From Eledone cirrhosa (taxonomy: Eukaryota): a stretch of DNA of 64,000 nucleotides. The notes beneath the pieces were generated by a model that had not been told where the DNA came from, did no database searches, and saw only the letters and a list, made by a program, of their open reading frames with translations. The stretch is taken from positions 168,640,001 to 168,704,000 of the forward strand of contig OZ024741.1 in the NCBI GenBank assembly GCA_964016885.1, given 5' to 3'. Every line of letters begins with the position of its first letter. Within the stretch, counting starts at the first letter, position 1. The translations under genes and the position numbers were made by a program. Below, piece after piece: positions 8,841 to 64,000 of the stretch.

Positions 8841-9711
8841 TCTAAACTATAATAAAGGAAGGTCTGCGGGACTGCGTACGGTTTATTATTTTTTTTATCC
8901 CGTTAGTAAAATAAGTTGGATTACTTTGAATAAATAATTGTTTCTACTTTAGGCACAAGGCCAGCAATTATCCAGTGCATTACTGGTACTTTATTTTATC
9001 GACCCCGTAAGGATGAAAGGCAAAGTCAACAAGTAGATAAATTATGTAATATTAATTCATTACTTTGAATAAATAATTGTTTCTACTTTAGGCACAAGGC
9101 CAGCAATTACCCAGTGCATTACTGGTACTTTATTTTATCGACCCCGTAAGGATGAAAGGCAAAGTTAACCTCGGCGGGATTTGAACTCAGATCATAAAGG
9201 GACGTAACTATGCTGGAAAGCATGGCGTCCGACCCTCTACCGATACTGCCAATCCACATGAATTAATATTACATAATTTATCTACTAAATTTCGTAAACA
9301 AAAATAATTTCGTAAAAATAAATAATTTAAAATTGACTTCTTTCCAAAGTTGCACTTCCGGTATATCGTTGCCACCACCACCACCACTTCAACTACCATA
9401 TATATAGAAAGAGAGAGTTTGTGATGCCAACACTTCCGGTGGCGTTCACTTAAATAAACATACTAATTTTTTGTCAATAATTTTCTCCTAATGCAGTTTA
9501 TATATAATATCGTCTTTTTTTAATGTATCATGGATTACGTTACTGATTACATAAGACAGTGTAACAACGTCTTCGTTCAATTTTTCTTTATATAGTCAAT
9601 TACGATTTTATTTGATGTATCATATATACATGTATATATACTTGCGTATAATATCAATATACACACTACACATGCTAGCAGAAAACCACCCGGGGGTGGT
9701 TTCTCTGCTAG
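8841..9711 (+). mobile_element. Non-autonomous Helitron-like element carrying a SINE insertion
   Basis: A|TC start (tctaaactataataaagg); terminal hairpin aaaccacc-cggg-ggtggttt then CTAG|T at 9708-9712. Confidence 0.6.
8935..9255 (-). mobile_element. MetaSINE-like tRNA SINE plus a partial duplicate of its 3' half
   Basis: Minus-strand B-box gagttcaaatccc, then gcctttcatccttacggggtcgataaaataaagtaccag (Meta-domain-like). Confidence 0.8.
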
Positions 9712-9888
9712 TATATATAATGTATATATATAATATATATATATAATATATATATATATATATGTGAATATAGACATAGAATATTCGAAAATATTCTGTA
9801 TGTTTATAATAAACATTTTGAAGACCTAATCGCTATAGAATAGAATACGTCACGTATTACAATTAGATTCTCGATAAAAGCAAGGGAA

Positions 9889-9931
9889 GTAATCTACGCG
9901 TTTCATTCTTGTTAGAAATCTTCAGGACTAC
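9889..9931 (-). ncRNA. Type-I minimal hammerhead ribozyme, copy 1
   Basis: GUAGUC-CUGAAGA-UUUCUAACAAGAAU-GAAA-CGCG-UA-GAUUAC: helix I 6 bp, intact core, helix II UUCU/AGAA, palindromic helix III, GUA cleavage triplet. Confidence 0.9.
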
Positions 9932-10198
9932 ATATCCAGTGCTTTTATCGAGAATGACACAGCTAGAGACTTATAGAATACTTAGCTGTGTACAGGAACT
10001 GGTTTGAAAGAGCGGTTGCCGGTCCGGCAGAAATTAGAAATTGGAATAAATGCTCTGAAATAGCGATATATATGTGAATATAGACATAGAATATTCGAAA
10101 ATATTCTGTATGTTTATAATAAACATTTTGAAGACCTAATCGCTATAGAATAGAATACGTCACGTATTACAATTAGATTCTCGATAAAAGCAAGGGAA

Positions 10199-10241
10199 GT
10201 AATCTACGCGTTTCATTCTTGTTAGAAATCTTCAGGACTAC
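10199..10241 (-). ncRNA. Type-I minimal hammerhead ribozyme, copy 2
   Basis: Identical to 9889-9931, offset by 310. Confidence 0.9.
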
Positions 10242-10508
10242 ATATCCAGTGCTTTTATCGAGAATGACACAGCTAGAGACTTATAGAATACTTAGCTGTG
10301 TACAGGAACTGGTTTGAAAGAGCGGTTGCCGGTCCGGCAGAAATTAGAAATTGGAATAAATGCTCTGAAATAGCGATATATATGTGAATATAGACATAGA
10401 ATATTCGAAAATATTCTGTATGTTTATAATAAACATTTTGAAGACCTAATCGCTATAGAATAGAATACGTCACGTATTACAATTAGATTCTCGATAAAAG
10501 CAAGGGAA

Positions 10509-10551
10509 GTAATCTACGCGTTTCATTCTTGTTAGAAATCTTCAGGACTAC
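10509..10551 (-). ncRNA. Type-I minimal hammerhead ribozyme, copy 3
   Basis: Identical to 9889-9931, offset by 620. Confidence 0.9.
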
Positions 10552-10818
10552 ATATCCAGTGCTTTTATCGAGAATGACACAGCTAGAGACTTATAGAATA
10601 CTTAGCTGTGTACAGGAACTGGTTTGAAAGAGCGGTTGCCGGTCCGGCAGAAATTAGAAATTGGAATAAATGCTCTGAAATAGCGATATATATGTGAATA
10701 TAGACATAGAATATTCGAAAATATTCTGTATGTTTATAATAAACATTTTGAAGACCTAATCGCTATAGAATAGAATACGTCACGTATTACAATTAGATTC
10801 TCGATAAAAGCAAGGGAA

Positions 10819-10861
10819 GTAATCTACGCGTTTCATTCTTGTTAGAAATCTTCAGGACTAC
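10819..10861 (-). ncRNA. Type-I minimal hammerhead ribozyme, copy 4
   Basis: Identical to 9889-9931, offset by 930. Confidence 0.9.
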
Positions 10862-11165
10862 ATATCCAGTGCTTTTATCGAGAATGACACAGCTAGAGAC
10901 TTATAGAATACTTAGCTGTGTACAGGAACTGGTTTGAAAGAGCGGTTGCCGGTCCGGCAGAAATTAGAAATTGGAATAAATGCTCTGAAATAGCGATATA
11001 TATGTGAATATAGACATAGAATATTCGAAAATATTCTGTATGTTTATAATAAACATTTTGAAGACCTAATCGCTATAGAATAGAATACGTCACGTATTAC
11101 AATTAGATTCGCTATTTCAGAGCATTTATTCCAATATATATATATATATATTTCAGAGCATTTAT

Positions 11166-11215
<50 letters not shown>

Positions 11216-11920: not shown

Positions 11921-12202
11921 ACATGTCACGGGAATGTGTATGGATGGATTATATATTCATTTTATTGTATATTTCTTTTATTATATATCTATTACGGGGT
12001 CGATAAAATAAAGTACCAGTAATGTACTGGGTAATTGCTGGCCTTGTGCCTAAAGTAGAAACAATTATATATCTATTTTATTGTATATTATATTCTTATT
12101 TTATTGTATATTGTATATTTACTGTTTTTATATATGTATATGTGTAAGCATATGTGTGTGTGTAAGTACATATACATATGTGCAGGTGTGTGCATATGCG
12201 TG

Positions 12203-33696: not shown

Positions 33697-36453
33697 CCAT
33701 CATCATCATCATCAATTTTATGTTCGCTTTTCTAAGTTTGCATGGGTTGGATTGGTCCTTCTCAGCACAGCATCTCTCACTTGTTGCATTCCTTTGTCAT
33801 CTCCTCTGCCAGTCTTAACGATTTCAAGTCTGCTCTCATAACCTCTGCCCAGGTCTTTCCTGGTGGTCTGTTATTGCAACTTCCTTTCACTAGGATTTCA
33901 TGGCATTTCTTCAACCATCGATCATTGTCCATGTGCATCACATGTCCACACCAATGCTGTCTTCTCTCCTGCACACCATCTCGGATTCTCCTTAAGCTCA
34001 ACTTCTCTCTTAGCTCATCCAATCTCTGCTTTTCTCACACATTTACATTCCACATCCACAAAAACATGGTTGCTTCATTTCTCTCCAGTCTACAGACCAT
34101 GTTTCACTAACATGCAGCATCATGCACTGCACACAGGTGTCATACAGCCTTCCTTTTGTTGTCCACTGTGAGAGCAGTTCTCTAAACTTCCTCCATCCTT
34201 ATTCTAGATATTATACACTTGGTGCAACCTTTTCTGCTGCTAATTAGGTTACCTAGATGACAGAAGATATCAACCACATCTATGGATCCATCCTGTGACT
34301 GGAAAAGGTTTATATCCTTAGCAGTCTTCCTCTCGATTTCTCCTGTGCATCTTCTACAAGCAAAGTTCTCCCTTCCCGTTAGTCTACTTGTTAGCTCACT
34401 ACATCCTTTGTATACCCAAGATTTACATTGTGTTCATTGTATGGCATTTATGCCTACTCCTTTTCTGCATATTGAGCATGTCCACTTCCCTGAGAGAGTC
34501 TGGGTCCTGTCTTCTGTCCTACTCACTAAGCACTTTAGTTTTGGCTAAGTTTACTCTCAGGCCTTTTGATTCCATATTCAGTTTCCATAATTGGAATTTA
34601 TTTTCTAGCTCTAAAGAAGTTCCCATGGGCAGCCTGTTATCAGCACCTCTGTTATGGCCTGAAGATCTATGGTGAACAGCAGTAGGCTAAGAACTGAACC
34701 TTGATGAATTCCTACCTGTACCTTGAATTCCTCGCTAAACTCATTTCCTACTTTCACTTTACTGACAGCTCCTCTGTACATAGCGTGCACTGTTCTCACA
34801 AGCCATTCTTCTACACTTAATTTCCTTAAGGACCGCCAGATAATAGAATGAGGTACTTTCTCTATCAAAGGCCTTCTCTAAATCAACAAAAGCTAAATAT
34901 AGTGGTTTATTTTTGGCTAGGCACTTCTCTTGTAGTTCCCACTCTAAGACGAGGGCATCTCTAGTACTTTTCCCAGGGATGAAACCAAACTGCATCTCAT
35001 CTATTTTGACTCTTTCCCTAATTAGCTGCACTATAACTCTTTCTGTCACTTTCATAACTTCGTCCATTAGTTTTATTCTGCAATAGTTGCTCCTTTGCTC
35101 TCCAACATGCATTAATTGATTTACTGTATGGGTTACTATTTTGACTTCTACCTCTCCTGATGCTTTTAGTATCTCAGCAACTATTTCTGATGGTTCTGCA
35201 GCTTTACCATTTTTTATCTCCTTTATTGCGTATTTGACCCTAAAACTATCAACCTCAATAACTGGTCCTTCCTTTGGATAAATTGGGGTTAGTTTCTCTT
35301 CCTCTCATTTATTCTCTACATTCATCGATCTCTCATAGTAACATTTCCAGGCCTCCTTCTTTTGGACATCAGTGGTGTTATGTGCACCAATGTCGTTTCG
35401 AACATACTTTTCCCTAACAACATCTCGATTCACACCGACACACTGCCTTGCTATATGGAACACTTCATGCCTCTGATCCTCATATCCCAAGACATTGGCA
35501 AATCTTCTTTCTTTGGCCTCTCTCCAAACTGTGTACACCTATCACCTAACTTCTGTATTAGCTACTTGGTACCAGTTTCTGCTACCCCCATCTTTTCAGT
35601 CTTTCCATGCCTATCTCTTGACTTTAATGGCTGCATCTATTGTGTTGTTCCACCACCAGGTTACCCTTTCTTTGGCTGGTGCTTTACTCCAGCTGCAAGT
35701 CTCACCAGTAGTTCACAAAAAGGTTGTTGCGTAAGAATTTCCAGTTGTCCTCTACATTATATATATCAAGCACATTATCCCTCTCATCAAGTGCATCCTG
35801 TAAAACCTTTCTAAACCTATATTTACCTGAGAGGGCCATACCCTTCATCTCCATATTTTACTGCATGTCTTGTTCTGTCTTTTGTTTATTTTGATGTCAC
35901 TAATAACTAACTTGTGCTGGGAAGTGCATTCTTCTCCAGTGAAGACCTTAGTATTTATTACAGTCCACTTGTCTGTTGTCTAACGATTAAGTAATCAAAT
36001 TAGCTTGTGTCTTCACCTGATTGATGTGAAATGAGGTGGTTGGCTGGTTTCCTGAAATTCATGTTGCAGATGGTTAGTTCATTTGCATCACAGAATTCCA
36101 GGAGTCTCAGCCCACTTCATTCCTTGAGCCTTAACCATAGCCGCCATGAACTTCACTGAATCCACCTTGGTACTGTCCCACATGTCCAGTAAAGTCACCT
36201 ACCACAATGATGAGGTCTCTTTCATCAATACCTGAATTTGTCTGCAAAACTTCCTCATAGAACCTGTCCTTTTGTTCTTTACCCAGTCCTGCCTGCAGAG
36301 CATAGGTAGATGTGATTGTCACAAGACTATTTCTTACAGTTAATCAAAGCTTGATGATTCTGTCACTTAATCTAACTACCTCTATCACCTTATAAATTAA
36401 TTTCTCAGTTAGTAGGATGCCTACACCTCCTACCACATTATCATTTCCTAACC
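33697..36453 (-). pseudogene. Long decayed RTE LINE (APE endonuclease plus RT)
   Basis: STYALQAG..IIVVGDFTGHVG (APE); MQFGFIPGKST..LYLAFVDLEKAFDR and VGIHQGSVLSLLLF (RT); many frameshifts; (GAT)n tail. Confidence 0.92.
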
Positions 36454-40715: not shown

Positions 40716-42680
40716 TATTGTGATATCTATCTACATCACTAAATCTGGATATCATCAAATATCTCTACTAAAATGGGAAGGATATGTTGTATTGTGATAT
40801 CTATCTACATCACCAAATCTGGACATCATCAAGTATCTCTATTAAAATGGGAAGGATATGTTGTATTGTGATATCTATCTACATCACCTAATCTAGAAAT
40901 CATCAAATATCTCTACTAAAATGGGAAGGATATGTTGTATTGTGATATCTATCTACATCACCAAATCTGGATATCATCAAATAGCTCTACTAAAATGGGA
41001 AGGATATGTTGTATTGTGATATCTATCTACATCACCAAATCTGGATATCATCAAATATCTCTACTAAAATGGGAAGGATATGTTGTATTGTGATATCTAT
41101 CTACATCACCAAATCTGGACATCATCAAGTATCTCTATTAAAATGGGAAGGATATGTTGTATTGTGATATCCATCTACATCACCAAATCTGGATATCATC
41201 AAATATCTCTACTAAAATGGGAAGGATATGTTGTATTGTGATATCTATCTACATCACTAAATCTGGACATCATCAAATATCTTTACTAAAATGGGAAGGA
41301 TATGTTGTATTGTGATATCTATCTACATCACCAAATCTGGATATCATCAAATATCTCTACTAAAATGGGAAGGATATGTTGTATTGTGATATCTATCTAC
41401 ATCACCAAATCTGGACATCATCAAGTATCTCTATTAAAATGGGAAGGATATGTTGTATTGTGATATCTATCTACATCACCAAATCTGGATATCATCAAAT
41501 ATCTCTACTAAAATGGGAAGGATATGTTGTATTGTGATATCTATCTACATCACCAAATCTGGATATCATCAAATATCTCTACTAAAATGGGAAGGATATG
41601 TTGTATTGTGATATCTAACTACATCACCAAATCTGGATATCATCAAATATCTCTACTAAAATGGGAAGGATATGTTGTATTGTGATATCTATCTACATCA
41701 CCAAATCTGGACATCATCAAGTATCTCTATTAAAATGGGAAGGATATGTTGTATTGTGATATCTATCTACATCACCAAATCTAGACATCATCAAATATCT
41801 CTACTAAAATGGGAAGGATATGTTGTATTGTGATATCTATCTACATCACCAAATCTGGATATCATCAAATATCTCTACTAAAATGGGAAGGATATGTTGT
41901 ATTGTGATATCTATCTACATCACTAAATCTGGATATCATCAAATATCTCTACTAAAATGGGAAGGATATGTTCTATTGTGATATCTATCTACATCACTAA
42001 ATCTGGACATCATCAAATATCTCTACTAAATTAGGAAGGATAATGTATTGTGATATCTATCTACATCACCAAATCTGGATATTATCAAATATCTCTACTA
42101 AAATGGGAAGGATGTGTTGTATTGTGATATCTATCTACATCACCAAATCTGGACATCATCAAGTATCTCTATTAAAATGGGAAGGATATGTTGTATTGTG
42201 ATATCTATCTACATCACCAAATCTAGATATCATCAAATATCTCTACTAAAATGGGAAGGATATGTTGTATTGTGATATCTATCTACATCACCAAATCTGG
42301 ATATCATCAAATATCTCTACTAAAATGGGAAGGATATGTTGTATTGTGATATCTATCTACATCACTAAATCTGGATATCATCAAATATCTCTACTAAAAT
42401 CGGAAGGATATGTTGTATTGTGATATCTATCTACATCACCAAATCTGGATATCATCAAATATCTCTACTAAAATGGGAAGGATATGTTGTATTGTGATAT
42501 CTATCTACATCACCAAATCTAGATATCATCAAATATCTCTACTAAAATGGGAAGGATATGTTGTATTGTGATATCTATCTACATCACCTAATCTGGACAT
42601 CATCAAGTATCTCTATTAAAATGGGAAGGATATGTTGTATTGTGATATCTATCTACATCACCAAATCTGGATATCAAATA
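40716..42680. repeat. 74-bp tandem satellite, about 26.5 copies
   Basis: Unit tattgtgatatctatctacatcaccaaatctggatatcatcaaatatctctactaaaatgggaaggatatgttg; no unique spacers. Confidence 0.97.
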
Positions 42681-62746: not shown

Positions 62747-64000
62747 GATATTAATAAATGGAAACTATATTTATAAAACCATATTTATTTCATTATACAT
62801 ATTTCAGGGATACCACATTAAATTATGGTATGCCTTCATCAGACAAAATACAATATATAACAGTTTTACAAATAGGTTTGACGTACCCTTTAAAATACAA
62901 CCATTACTTTTGGAGGCTGTCCGGATAGTGATTTGTTTATATAATAAGTCATAGAAAAAGACGGAGAGAAAGAAAGAGAAAAGAACAAAGACAGAGAGAG
63001 AGAAAGAAAAGAGAAAGAAAACCTGGAGAAATATCGGAGAGAGAAATGTATGGAGAAAAGAAAGACATAGATAGAGATAGGAGGAAATAAAAAAAAGAAA
63101 GAAAAGGAAGGAATAAGAAAAACAAAGGAAAGCAACAGAGAGATATCAAGTCATCATACAGAAAAAGAAACTCAAGAGAGAGAAATACTATATAGAGAGA
63201 GGGGGACAGTGACAACTTTACGTCATGTCATATTAAGTTAAGTTAACAATTTATATGAAATGAATAATAAAAATATAAATATAAGTACCAATATTCATGA
63301 ATGGGACATAGATATATAATATGAGAAATTAAACATTGTTCAATAATGACTATATGTTTAGTTTAGAAACTTGAGATCAATATACCAAAATCTGAGTTCA
63401 AAATGTACCCTTGCTATAGAGATTAGTATTTTATGCAAAGACATACAAATATATATGTATATATACATACATATAGATACGCACGTCCTGAAAATATAAA
63501 TTATGTTTACTCAAGCCAACAATATAACCATACAAAACGTAAATGATTTCTCTTAATCACTGCTATACACTCATTGTGTTATAAAAATTTCATAGTATAT
63601 ATATACAAATATATACGATTAACAATCATGTCCTCATATATACGATTACCATTCATGTGTTTAATATTATGGCAATCTGCAAGATACCTCTCAACCACAT
63701 AGATATATACACATACATATATACGCATACATATGTATAAATAAATATTTGCGTGCGTCCTCATGCATCACTCATGTATATATACAGACACATATACAAA
63801 CACAAAAAATCTATAACACTTTCTATGCATGTTAATACACACATATGCATTTGTATAGAGATAATCCAATATCAATAAATTACCAAAGGATTATAATTTG
63901 TAAATATAACCACAACAATACAAATTTAAAATACCAAAGGAATATATTTTGGAAATGCAACTATATAGTCAAAAGAAATCTAGAAATATCAAAGCATCAA

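What the first reader, a model, noticed from the sequence alone, without database searches (positions are those of the whole stretch)
9889..10861. Palindromic helix III: the ribozyme may be active only in tandem
Seen: between GAA and the cleavage nucleotide lies only ACGCGU, a perfect palindrome too short to give a stable intramolecular helix III. There is also a U-U mismatch at the base of helix II. Established: hammerheads with vestigial helix III (newt satellite 2, ASBVd plus strand, PLE minimal hammerheads) cleave as double hammerheads. Inference: neighbouring units pair through ACGCGU, so multimers cut efficiently while released monomers or circles stay stable. This would be a copy-number-dependent switch.
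Basis: partly seen in the sequence, partly recalled or inferred. Interest (0 to 1): 0.7.

Follow-up and report, generated by a model that had tools for sequence, protein, structure and literature searches.

The report
Hammerhead retrozyme with palindromic pairing stem
This is one copy of a young, abundant jumping repeat whose 310-base unit carries a self-cutting RNA motif with a six-base palindrome; neighbouring units likely pair through it to cut better than a single unit, a device already described in salamanders, and its insertions bear the marks of Penelope-type transposons, which likely copied a small RNA circle.

Summary
Observation confirmed: four identical minus-strand type I hammerheads with helix III ACGCGU and U·U under helix II, in a 310-nt unit. 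It is a non-LTR retrozyme, at least 15,288 motifs genome-wide. The dimer idea is published (PMC4209133 states it; axolotl dimers tested, PMC7229834), so it is not new. New support here: 12,950 of 13,017 motifs keep CGCG, the three array-wide exceptions still self-pair, and related families use other palindromes (ACUAGU, ACAGAGCUCUGU). Against 'only in tandem': the ribozyme is extended, not minimal; the modelled double fold is only 2-7 times likelier than a single one; U·U is polymorphic. No RNA data. Best reading: dimer-enhanced, not dimer-only. Insertions show a Penelope footprint: 106 of 108 resolved two-armed insertions end at two different fixed sites in (TA)n, and arms share private variants, pointing to rolling reverse transcription of a lasting monomer circle. 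The scan had noted that footprint on other copies of this family; I measured it independently.

The parts
9756..11110 (-). Retrozyme array, long arm: 4.37 identical 310-nt units, 5'-truncated at monomer nt 25, 3' end at site A (monomer nt about 132-139; monomer numbered from the base after the cut)
9889..9931 (-). Type I hammerhead 1 (helix I GUAGUC/GAUUAC, core CUGAAGA and GAA, helix II, ACGCGU, A17); predicted cut 3' of 9895
10199..10241 (-). Type I hammerhead 2; predicted cut 3' of 10205
10509..10551 (-). Type I hammerhead 3; predicted cut 3' of 10515
10819..10861 (-). Type I hammerhead 4; predicted cut 3' of 10825
9896..9901 (-). Palindromic helix III ACGCGU (also 10206-10211, 10516-10521, 10826-10831)
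   Evidence: conserved in 12,950 of 13,017 motifs
9905..9918 (-). Helix II (U·U, U-A, U-A, C-G) with 6-nt loop UAACAA; 5' strand UUUC is predicted to mispair with GAAA of the core; repeated in each unit
9867..9955 (-). Extended hammerhead: distal 16-bp helix I (9940-9955 with 9867-9882) and internal loop 1; repeated in each unit
9895..10204 (-). Predicted released monomer, cut to cut (310 nt; also 10205-10514 and 10515-10824); predicted circle -67.8 kcal/mol against -46.5 +/- 4.2 for 60 shuffles
11109..11135 (+). Short inverted arm, monomer nt 139-165, ending at site B (the 'tail'); a second copy of nt 143-165 at 11149-11171
9712..9763 (.). (TA)n target microsatellite at the site A end
11170..11211 (.). 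(TA)n target microsatellite at the site B end

Best explanation
The four motifs are type I hammerhead sequences in a young non-LTR retrozyme, and they likely cut poorly as single units and better when two neighbouring units pair through ACGCGU into a double hammerhead, so the effect is likely graded, not on/off. Shown: the motif, its conservation, the family size and the insertion anatomy. Predicted by folding: in a tandem transcript the palindromes of units n and n+1 can form a 6-bp helix III while helix I strands swap, so both sites are cut and exactly one 310-nt monomer is released already in its own fold, ends close together. Inferred from relatives: a host RtcB-type ligase closes it into a circle. 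In the circle helix I stays paired but helix III has one pair and, with U10.1, helix II mostly mispairs with GAAA, so the circle likely re-cuts slowly. Inferred from the insertions: a Penelope-type RT/endonuclease nicks both strands of (TA)n, primes at two fixed sites about 30 nt apart and runs round the circle, giving two inverted multi-unit arms that can be transcribed again.
For: Motif and covarying extended helix I. Palindrome kept in 12,950 of 13,017 motifs; 39 of the 67 exceptions lie in three whole arrays, all C>U changes that keep self-pairing by G·U, and no pair-breaking change fills an array. Related 466-470-nt family: same loop 2, helix III ACUAGU in 95 of 100 listed motifs (9,804 matches, control 18): the two central bases differ yet stay self-complementary, and they cannot pair within one hammerhead. 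Sister 320-nt family: ACAGAGCUCUGU in about 53 of 100 listed (hand count). Double fold 7.7 kcal/mol below two closed singles, inner part equal to the monomer's own fold. Single-hammerhead fold rare in the circle, P about 6e-6. Axolotl Amex1 (1 bp plus palindromic tetraloop) and Amex2 (U·U under helix II) cleave 6% and 22% as monomers and much better as dimers (PMC7229834). Insertions: 106 of 108 resolved two-armed cases are A+B, none A+A or B+B; 219 of 223 end flanks AT-rich; arm haplotypes agree in 51 of 56 against 0.14 expected per pair, two of the five misses being alignment artefacts.
Against: No cleavage or expression data. In the ensemble model the double fold is itself rare (P about 1e-5) and only 2.3 times (window type), 7 times (A10.1 type) or 1.1 times (466-nt family) likelier than a single fold; the model has no tertiary or Mg2+ terms. 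A 25-bp local helix I forms first in transcription (p 0.997), so strand swapping may be slow. Selection on the palindrome within the family is weak statistically: 2.7-3.7 array-wide pair-breaking changes expected, 0 seen, P 0.02-0.07; Fisher P 0.23 against single-unit changes. ACGUGU loses almost all of the modelled dimer gain (-1.0 kcal/mol) yet fills two arrays. Homology of the 466-nt family is weak (75% over 32 nt, E 0.14). L213 switches haplotype in both arms and L187 in one, so some templates are not single monomers. No autonomous partner was found.
Confidence: 0.6

Rival explanations
1. Strict switch: single units and circles are essentially inactive and all cleavage goes through the double hammerhead.
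For: One-pair helix III plus U·U combines both weaknesses of the axolotl motifs; single fold costs 7.4 kcal/mol; templates appear to survive up to about 25 rounds of copying; tertiary stabilisation would count twice in a double hammerhead (inference).
Against: Axolotl monomers still cleave 6-22% per hour; newt monomers cleave when helix I has its internally looped extension (review PMC6155905), which this motif has; modelled preference only 2-7-fold.
Confidence: 0.17
2. Monomer-active ribozyme: loop 1-loop 2 contacts hold the single hammerhead together, the palindrome is inherited shape without present function, and circles are protected by the UUUC:GAAA misfold or by bound protein.
For: Full extended type I anatomy with invariant last A of loop 2 across families; coral and mussel retrozymes cleave as monomers at about 0.8 and 0.1 per min; misfold p about 0.8 with U10.1; the sister family has a 4-bp helix III able to form in cis; PMC7229834 itself invokes an unknown block in circles.
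Against: Different self-complementary centres in related families; no array-wide pair-breaking change; the A10.1 subfamily lacks the misfold (native helix II 0.9) yet spread to 20 of 95 arrays.
Confidence: 0.19
3. The motif is inactive or irrelevant; the arrays are DNA satellites grown by unequal exchange or DNA rolling circle.
For: No direct activity data; some variants recur in non-periodic units, showing local duplication after insertion; eight of nine Xenopus retrozyme dimers showed no cleavage in vitro (preprint).
Against: Fixed A/B ends, random 5' ends, inverted arms and (TA)n targets fit Penelope-type priming; no array-wide change in the core among 95 arrays while 8 of 13 recurrent variant sites sit at tolerant hammerhead positions.
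Confidence: 0.04

Closest known systems
Axolotl and newt non-LTR retrozymes: HHR_Amex1, HHR_Amex2, newt satellite 2 (PMC7229834, parts 1-4 of 6 read, supplement unreadable; newt originals not held, seen only through review passages of PMC6155905)
   Same: Type I hammerhead in about 330-nt tandem units; Amex1 has one pair capped by a palindromic tetraloop with tertiary loops, Amex2 has U·U under helix II; dimers cleave much better.
   Different: Both weak features in one motif; an invertebrate-looking host, where the paper reports mostly monomer-active motifs; U·U polymorphic; two-armed insertions with fixed ends are not described there.
Penelope-like element hammerheads (PMC4209133, parts 1-2 of 4 read; PMC6765202 passages; Lunse et al. 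2017 not held)
   Same: Short palindromic helix III, dimer cleavage, and the stated idea that multimers cut while monomeric circles do not.
   Different: This motif is canonical and extended (6-bp helix I plus internal loop and 16-bp helix, 6-nt loop 2), not minimal; no ORF.
Penelope-like element insertion footprint (PMC8557442 passages; PMC11167929 passages) and retrozymes as non-autonomous PLE derivatives (preprint 10.64898/2026.07.22.740005, parts 1-3 of 5 read)
   Same: Inverted 5'-truncated copy, a 30-40-bp tail at one end, (TA)n targets, two internal RT start sites flanking the tail, both strands nicked and extended; multi-copy head-to-tail non-autonomous PLEs (MRC1).
   Different: Non-coding template; strict one-A-one-B pairing per insertion (the in vitro study saw no strand difference in start site); arms of up to about 25 units sharing private variants. 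The preprint rests on co-occurrence and phylogeny, not on insertion ends.

Membership tests
Type I hammerhead ribozyme | Core CUGANGA, GAAA and NUH in order, with helix I open | tested here: met
   GUA triplet
Type I hammerhead ribozyme | Helices I and II supported by covariation | tested here: met
   8 compensatory pairs of 16 in distal helix I; helix II GYAC/GURC in the sister family; base pair 10.1-11.1 is U·U or A-U, not G-C
Type I hammerhead ribozyme | Match to Rfam Hammerhead_1 | tested here: not met
   no hit at gathering score or at E<=10; the model finds another family in this genome
Type I hammerhead ribozyme | Loop 1-loop 2 tertiary contact | tested here: inconclusive
   internal loop 1 and a 6-nt loop 2 with invariant last A are present; the contact geometry is recalled, not computed
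Type I hammerhead ribozyme | Self-cleavage at the predicted site | not testable with these tools
   needs in vitro assay
Metazoan non-LTR retrozyme | 150-450-nt non-coding tandem units, each with a type I hammerhead, low GC, dispersed | tested here: met
   310 nt, 34% GC, at least 15,288 motifs, 1,024 exact site-B junctions
Metazoan non-LTR retrozyme | Highly self-paired predicted circle | tested here: met
   -67.8 against -46.5 +/- 4.2 kcal/mol in 60 shuffles
Metazoan non-LTR retrozyme | Expressed as linear and circular RNA | not testable with these tools
Double (dimeric) hammerhead | Helix III too short in cis and self-complementary | tested here: met
   A15.1-U16.1 probability about 1e-5 in the circle; duplex -7.5 kcal/mol
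Double (dimeric) hammerhead | Palindrome conserved or covarying | tested here: met
   within-family selection test weak
Double (dimeric) hammerhead | Dimer strongly preferred over the single fold | tested here: inconclusive
   7.7 kcal/mol at minimum energy for two cores but 2-7-fold in the ensemble
PLE minimal hammerhead | Short helix I, long helix II, no tertiary loops, inside a pLTR beside an RT-EN ORF | tested here: not met
   extended helix I, 4-bp helix II, no ORF attached in 132 insertions
Non-autonomous Penelope-mobilised element | Inverted 5'-truncated arm, two fixed 3' ends 30-40 nt apart, microsatellite target | tested here: met
   106 of 108 A+B, ends at about nt 126-139 and 163-172; 219 of 223 flanks AT-rich
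Non-autonomous Penelope-mobilised element | 3'-end similarity to an autonomous PLE in the genome | tested here: inconclusive
   one abundant (TA)n-targeting PLE family tested (20 loci), only TA-repeat similarity seen in the part of the output shown; other families not tested

The most novel reading that the evidence does not exclude
The retrozyme is a self-measuring RNA replicon: the double hammerhead cuts only multimers and excises exact monomers, the monomer circle is off, and one Penelope RT dimer then loads on that single circle at two offset start sites and spools it in both directions from a double nick, so ribozyme dimerisation and twin rolling-circle priming form one cycle. This would answer both open points of the 2020 retrozyme paper (what keeps circles intact, and which enzyme moves them) in one testable family with natural alleles (U10.1 or A10.1; CGCG, UGCG, CGUG; CUAG).
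Probability: 0.2. Interest if true: 0.7.

Novelty: new member of a known kind. Interest (0 to 1): 0.42.

Why it matters
The dimer switch as such is textbook for newt, axolotl and Penelope hammerheads, so the finding adds a member, not a principle. Its value is as a test system. PMC7229834 leaves open what stops retrozyme circles from cutting themselves and which retroelement moves them. This family offers thousands of near-identical young insertions, natural alleles that separate two candidate brakes (palindrome against the U10.1 misfold), relatives with different palindrome centres for a natural swap-and-rescue test, and an insertion footprint that points to Penelope enzymes rolling on one circle. 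In four paper searches I found no description of that footprint for a retrozyme; the library lacks most subscription papers.

Tried and rejected
Rfam scan: no hammerhead hit for this motif. Expression: no RNA holder listed, which says nothing either way. Closed 340-nt contigs in runs X2, X3, X6 looked like circles; rejected as evidence, because a tandem repeat assembles the same way and these runs also hold a PLE stretch at low depth. Autonomous partner: the PLE joined to a sister unit in L259 belongs to a large family with its own ends and no clear similarity (output of 69 was cut); no ORF is attached to any of 132 family insertions. Multimeric circle templates: among 104 arms of 4 or more units only L123 has a strictly periodic variant, and its other arm lacks it; this fits monomer templates but does not tell dimer-only from efficient monomer cleavage. 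'All helix changes keep pairing' was discounted as proof of selection: most are A>G (10 of 29 array-wide types against 19 of 143 sporadic, P 0.012), which A-to-I editing of paired RNA would also give. In-silico palindrome changes in unconstrained folding were uninformative, as the double fold is not populated even for the natural sequence. The first distal-helix comparison was out of register and was redone. Not checked: whether the C151 and C5 ACGUGU arrays are independent; helix III in 2,171 of the 2,271 motifs; length variants of helix III and changes at A15.1 or U16.1, which the patterns exclude. Newt papers and Lunse et al. not held; the supplement of PMC7229834 could not be read and may list cephalopod retrozymes.

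Full report
1. What is in the sequence. The window holds a 310-bp tandem array at 9756-11110, 4.37 identical units. On the minus strand each unit has a type I hammerhead, GUAGUC CUGAAGA UUUC-UAACAA-GAAU GAA ACGCGU A GAUUAC, at 9889-9931, 10199-10241, 10509-10551 and 10819-10861. Rfam does not detect it. The host is an unnamed 3.0-Gb genome; my impression that it is a cephalopod was not tested.

2. The family. A pattern with helix III left free matches 13,017 places (reversed control 0); a loop 2 variant adds 2,271, so at least 15,288. There are 1,024 exact junctions of one fixed end with (AT)n. Unit-level divergence inside arrays is 184 changes in 269,146 bases, so the family is very young. 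The predicted monomer circle folds at -67.8 kcal/mol against -46.5 +/- 4.2 for 60 shuffles. This meets the sequence definition of a metazoan non-LTR retrozyme (PMC7229834); expression could not be tested.

3. Is the palindrome selected? Within the family 12,950 of 13,017 motifs have CGCG; the 67 others (29+4+27+7) split into 39 motifs in three whole arrays (AUGCGU in 19 units of both arms on C11; ACGUGU in 6 units on C5 and 14 on C151) and 28 single units (13 pair-keeping, 15 pair-breaking). All whole-array changes are C>U and keep self-pairing by G·U. With the array-wide rate from 95 sampled arrays (23 rare events in 25,825 site-arrays) and 1,400-1,950 arrays, 2.7-3.7 pair-breaking whole-array changes were expected and none seen, P 0.02-0.07: suggestive only. 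Across families the signal is stronger. A 466-470-nt family (9,804 pattern matches, control 18) has the same loop 2 and ACUAGU in 95 of 100 listed motifs; the two central bases change from GC to UA and can pair only between two copies. Its homology to this family is weak (75% over 32 nt at the site A region, E 0.14). A clearly homologous 320-nt sister family (1,321 matches; core UUGAUAA, the U3-A8 variant described in PMC4209133; 8 compensatory pairs of 16 in distal helix I) has ACAGAGCUCUGU in about 53 of 100 listed (hand count), and about 20 more keep the central AGCU with a broken fourth pair: the loop stays palindromic although a 4-bp stem can form in cis. A further family has ACAUUGU (29 of 30 loci read in the sense shown), also self-complementary around one U·U.

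4. Does folding predict a switch? The double hammerhead is nested, and its inner part is the released monomer's own fold. At minimum energy it is 7.7 kcal/mol better than two single hammerheads with A15.1-U16.1 closed, but 5.7 above the inactive minimum. In ensemble terms a single core costs 7.4 and the double 6.9 kcal/mol, a ratio of 2.3; 7 for the A10.1 allele, 126 for the sister, 1.1 for the 466-nt family. The model lacks tertiary and Mg2+ terms, which would count twice in the double form (inference), so it neither shows nor excludes a strong switch. It does reveal a second brake: with U10.1 the 5' strand of helix II pairs with GAAA of the core (p about 0.8, native helix II 0.15-0.18); with A10.1 native helix II is 0.9. 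A10.1 is fixed in 20 of 95 arrays and seen in runs X1 and X2, so U·U is not required for spread.

5. What is known. PMC7229834 tested axolotl motifs: one pair plus palindromic tetraloop, 6% monomer cleavage in an hour; U·U under helix II, 22%; dimers much more efficient; coral and mussel monomers 0.8 and 0.1 per min. A review reports that newt monomers cleave given an internally looped helix I (PMC6155905 passages). In a preprint one of nine Xenopus dimers cleaved. A search on double hammerheads and monomeric circles gave nothing closer (listing only).

6. How the arrays got there. The window's long arm ends at monomer nt about 139 in (TA)n, and an inverted 27-nt arm ends at nt 165. Of 52 loci (37 of them chosen for identity to the window type, the window included), 38 are two-armed with one end at site A (126-139) and one at site B (163-172), 1 is B plus another site, 10 are one-armed, 3 unresolved. 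Of 80 loci picked by a B junction, 68 are A+B, 1 is a four-piece case, 6 show one arm (2 of them run off the fetched stretch), 5 unresolved. No A+A or B+B was seen; A+A could not appear in the second set. 5' ends do not depart clearly from uniform (KS P 0.09). These are the published Penelope marks: inverted 5'-truncated copy, 30-40-bp tail, (TA)n target (PMC8557442), and two internal RT starts flanking the tail with both strands extended (PMC11167929). Both arms share one haplotype in 51 of 56 testable insertions, against 0.14 per random pair; of the five misses two are alignment artefacts, one differs at one site, and two show a haplotype switch along the arms. Private variants fill whole arrays (A88T in L219, a 2-nt deletion in L177, AUGCGU on C11 with no other array-wide source among the pattern's matches), which needs a one-unit bottleneck followed by multiplication, most simply rolling reverse transcription on a monomer circle. 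No autonomous partner was identified.

7. Verdict. Real, well-supported hammerhead retrozyme; dimer-enhanced cleavage likely (0.6), strictly dimer-only 0.17, monomer-active 0.19. The mechanism proposed in the finding is known, so this is a new member of a known kind. Its worth lies in the cross-family covariation of the palindrome, a second predicted brake, and an insertion footprint that makes two open questions about retrozymes testable. Interest 0.42.

Noticed in passing
window 62788-62848, minus strand: A second, single hammerhead-like motif (CUGAUGA, long helix II, GAA, self-complementary AUAUGUAU, A) about 50 nt upstream of a (TA)n run; a similar motif lies in L300. Looks like a PLE-type minimal hammerhead.
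   Followed up: partly
L252-L281; G000, 1,321 matches: Older 320-nt sister retrozyme with the U3-A8 core variant (UUGAUAA), 12-nt palindromic helix III and the same A/B ends; mostly short two-armed insertions.
   Followed up: yes
L302-L334; G000, 9,804 matches: 466-470-nt retrozyme family with ACUAGU; in the monomer the palindrome is predicted to pair with the CUG of the core. L332 is a mosaic array with ACUCGU in 4 of 15 units.
   Followed up: partly
L031-L060: Hammerhead family found by RF00163 (ACAUUGU helix III), not tandem in these loci, ending in (TA)n at two fixed sites about 100 nt apart.
   Followed up: partly
L282-L301: Abundant PLE (16,389 candidates, 95-97% identity, open frames up to 1,089 aa) with a cysteine cluster before a C-terminal GIY-YIG domain (Neptune-like by recall), inserted in (TA)n with several fixed 3' ends; one copy is joined to a sister retrozyme unit in L259.
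   Followed up: partly
L213, L187: Both arms of L213 switch haplotype after the second unit; L187 switches in one arm: template switching or a multimeric template.
   Followed up: partly
array-wide variants: Excess of A>G on the sense strand among array-wide changes (10 of 29 types), mostly in helices: possible A-to-I editing of the RNA template.
   Followed up: partly
window 9676-9711: GC-rich hairpin followed by CTAG and the (TA)n run next to the array; resembles a Helitron-type 3' end (recalled).
   Followed up: no
window 40716-42676: 74-bp tandem repeat, 26.5 copies, 95% matches; no hammerhead by the scan.
   Followed up: no
window 34759-35304, minus strand: Reverse transcriptase fragment (RVT_1, E 4.6e-07).
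   Followed up: no
window 8900-9270 and 11986-12060: Copies of a tRNA-like SINE, partly duplicated at 8900-9170; the same element interrupts the PLE 3' region in L290.
   Followed up: no
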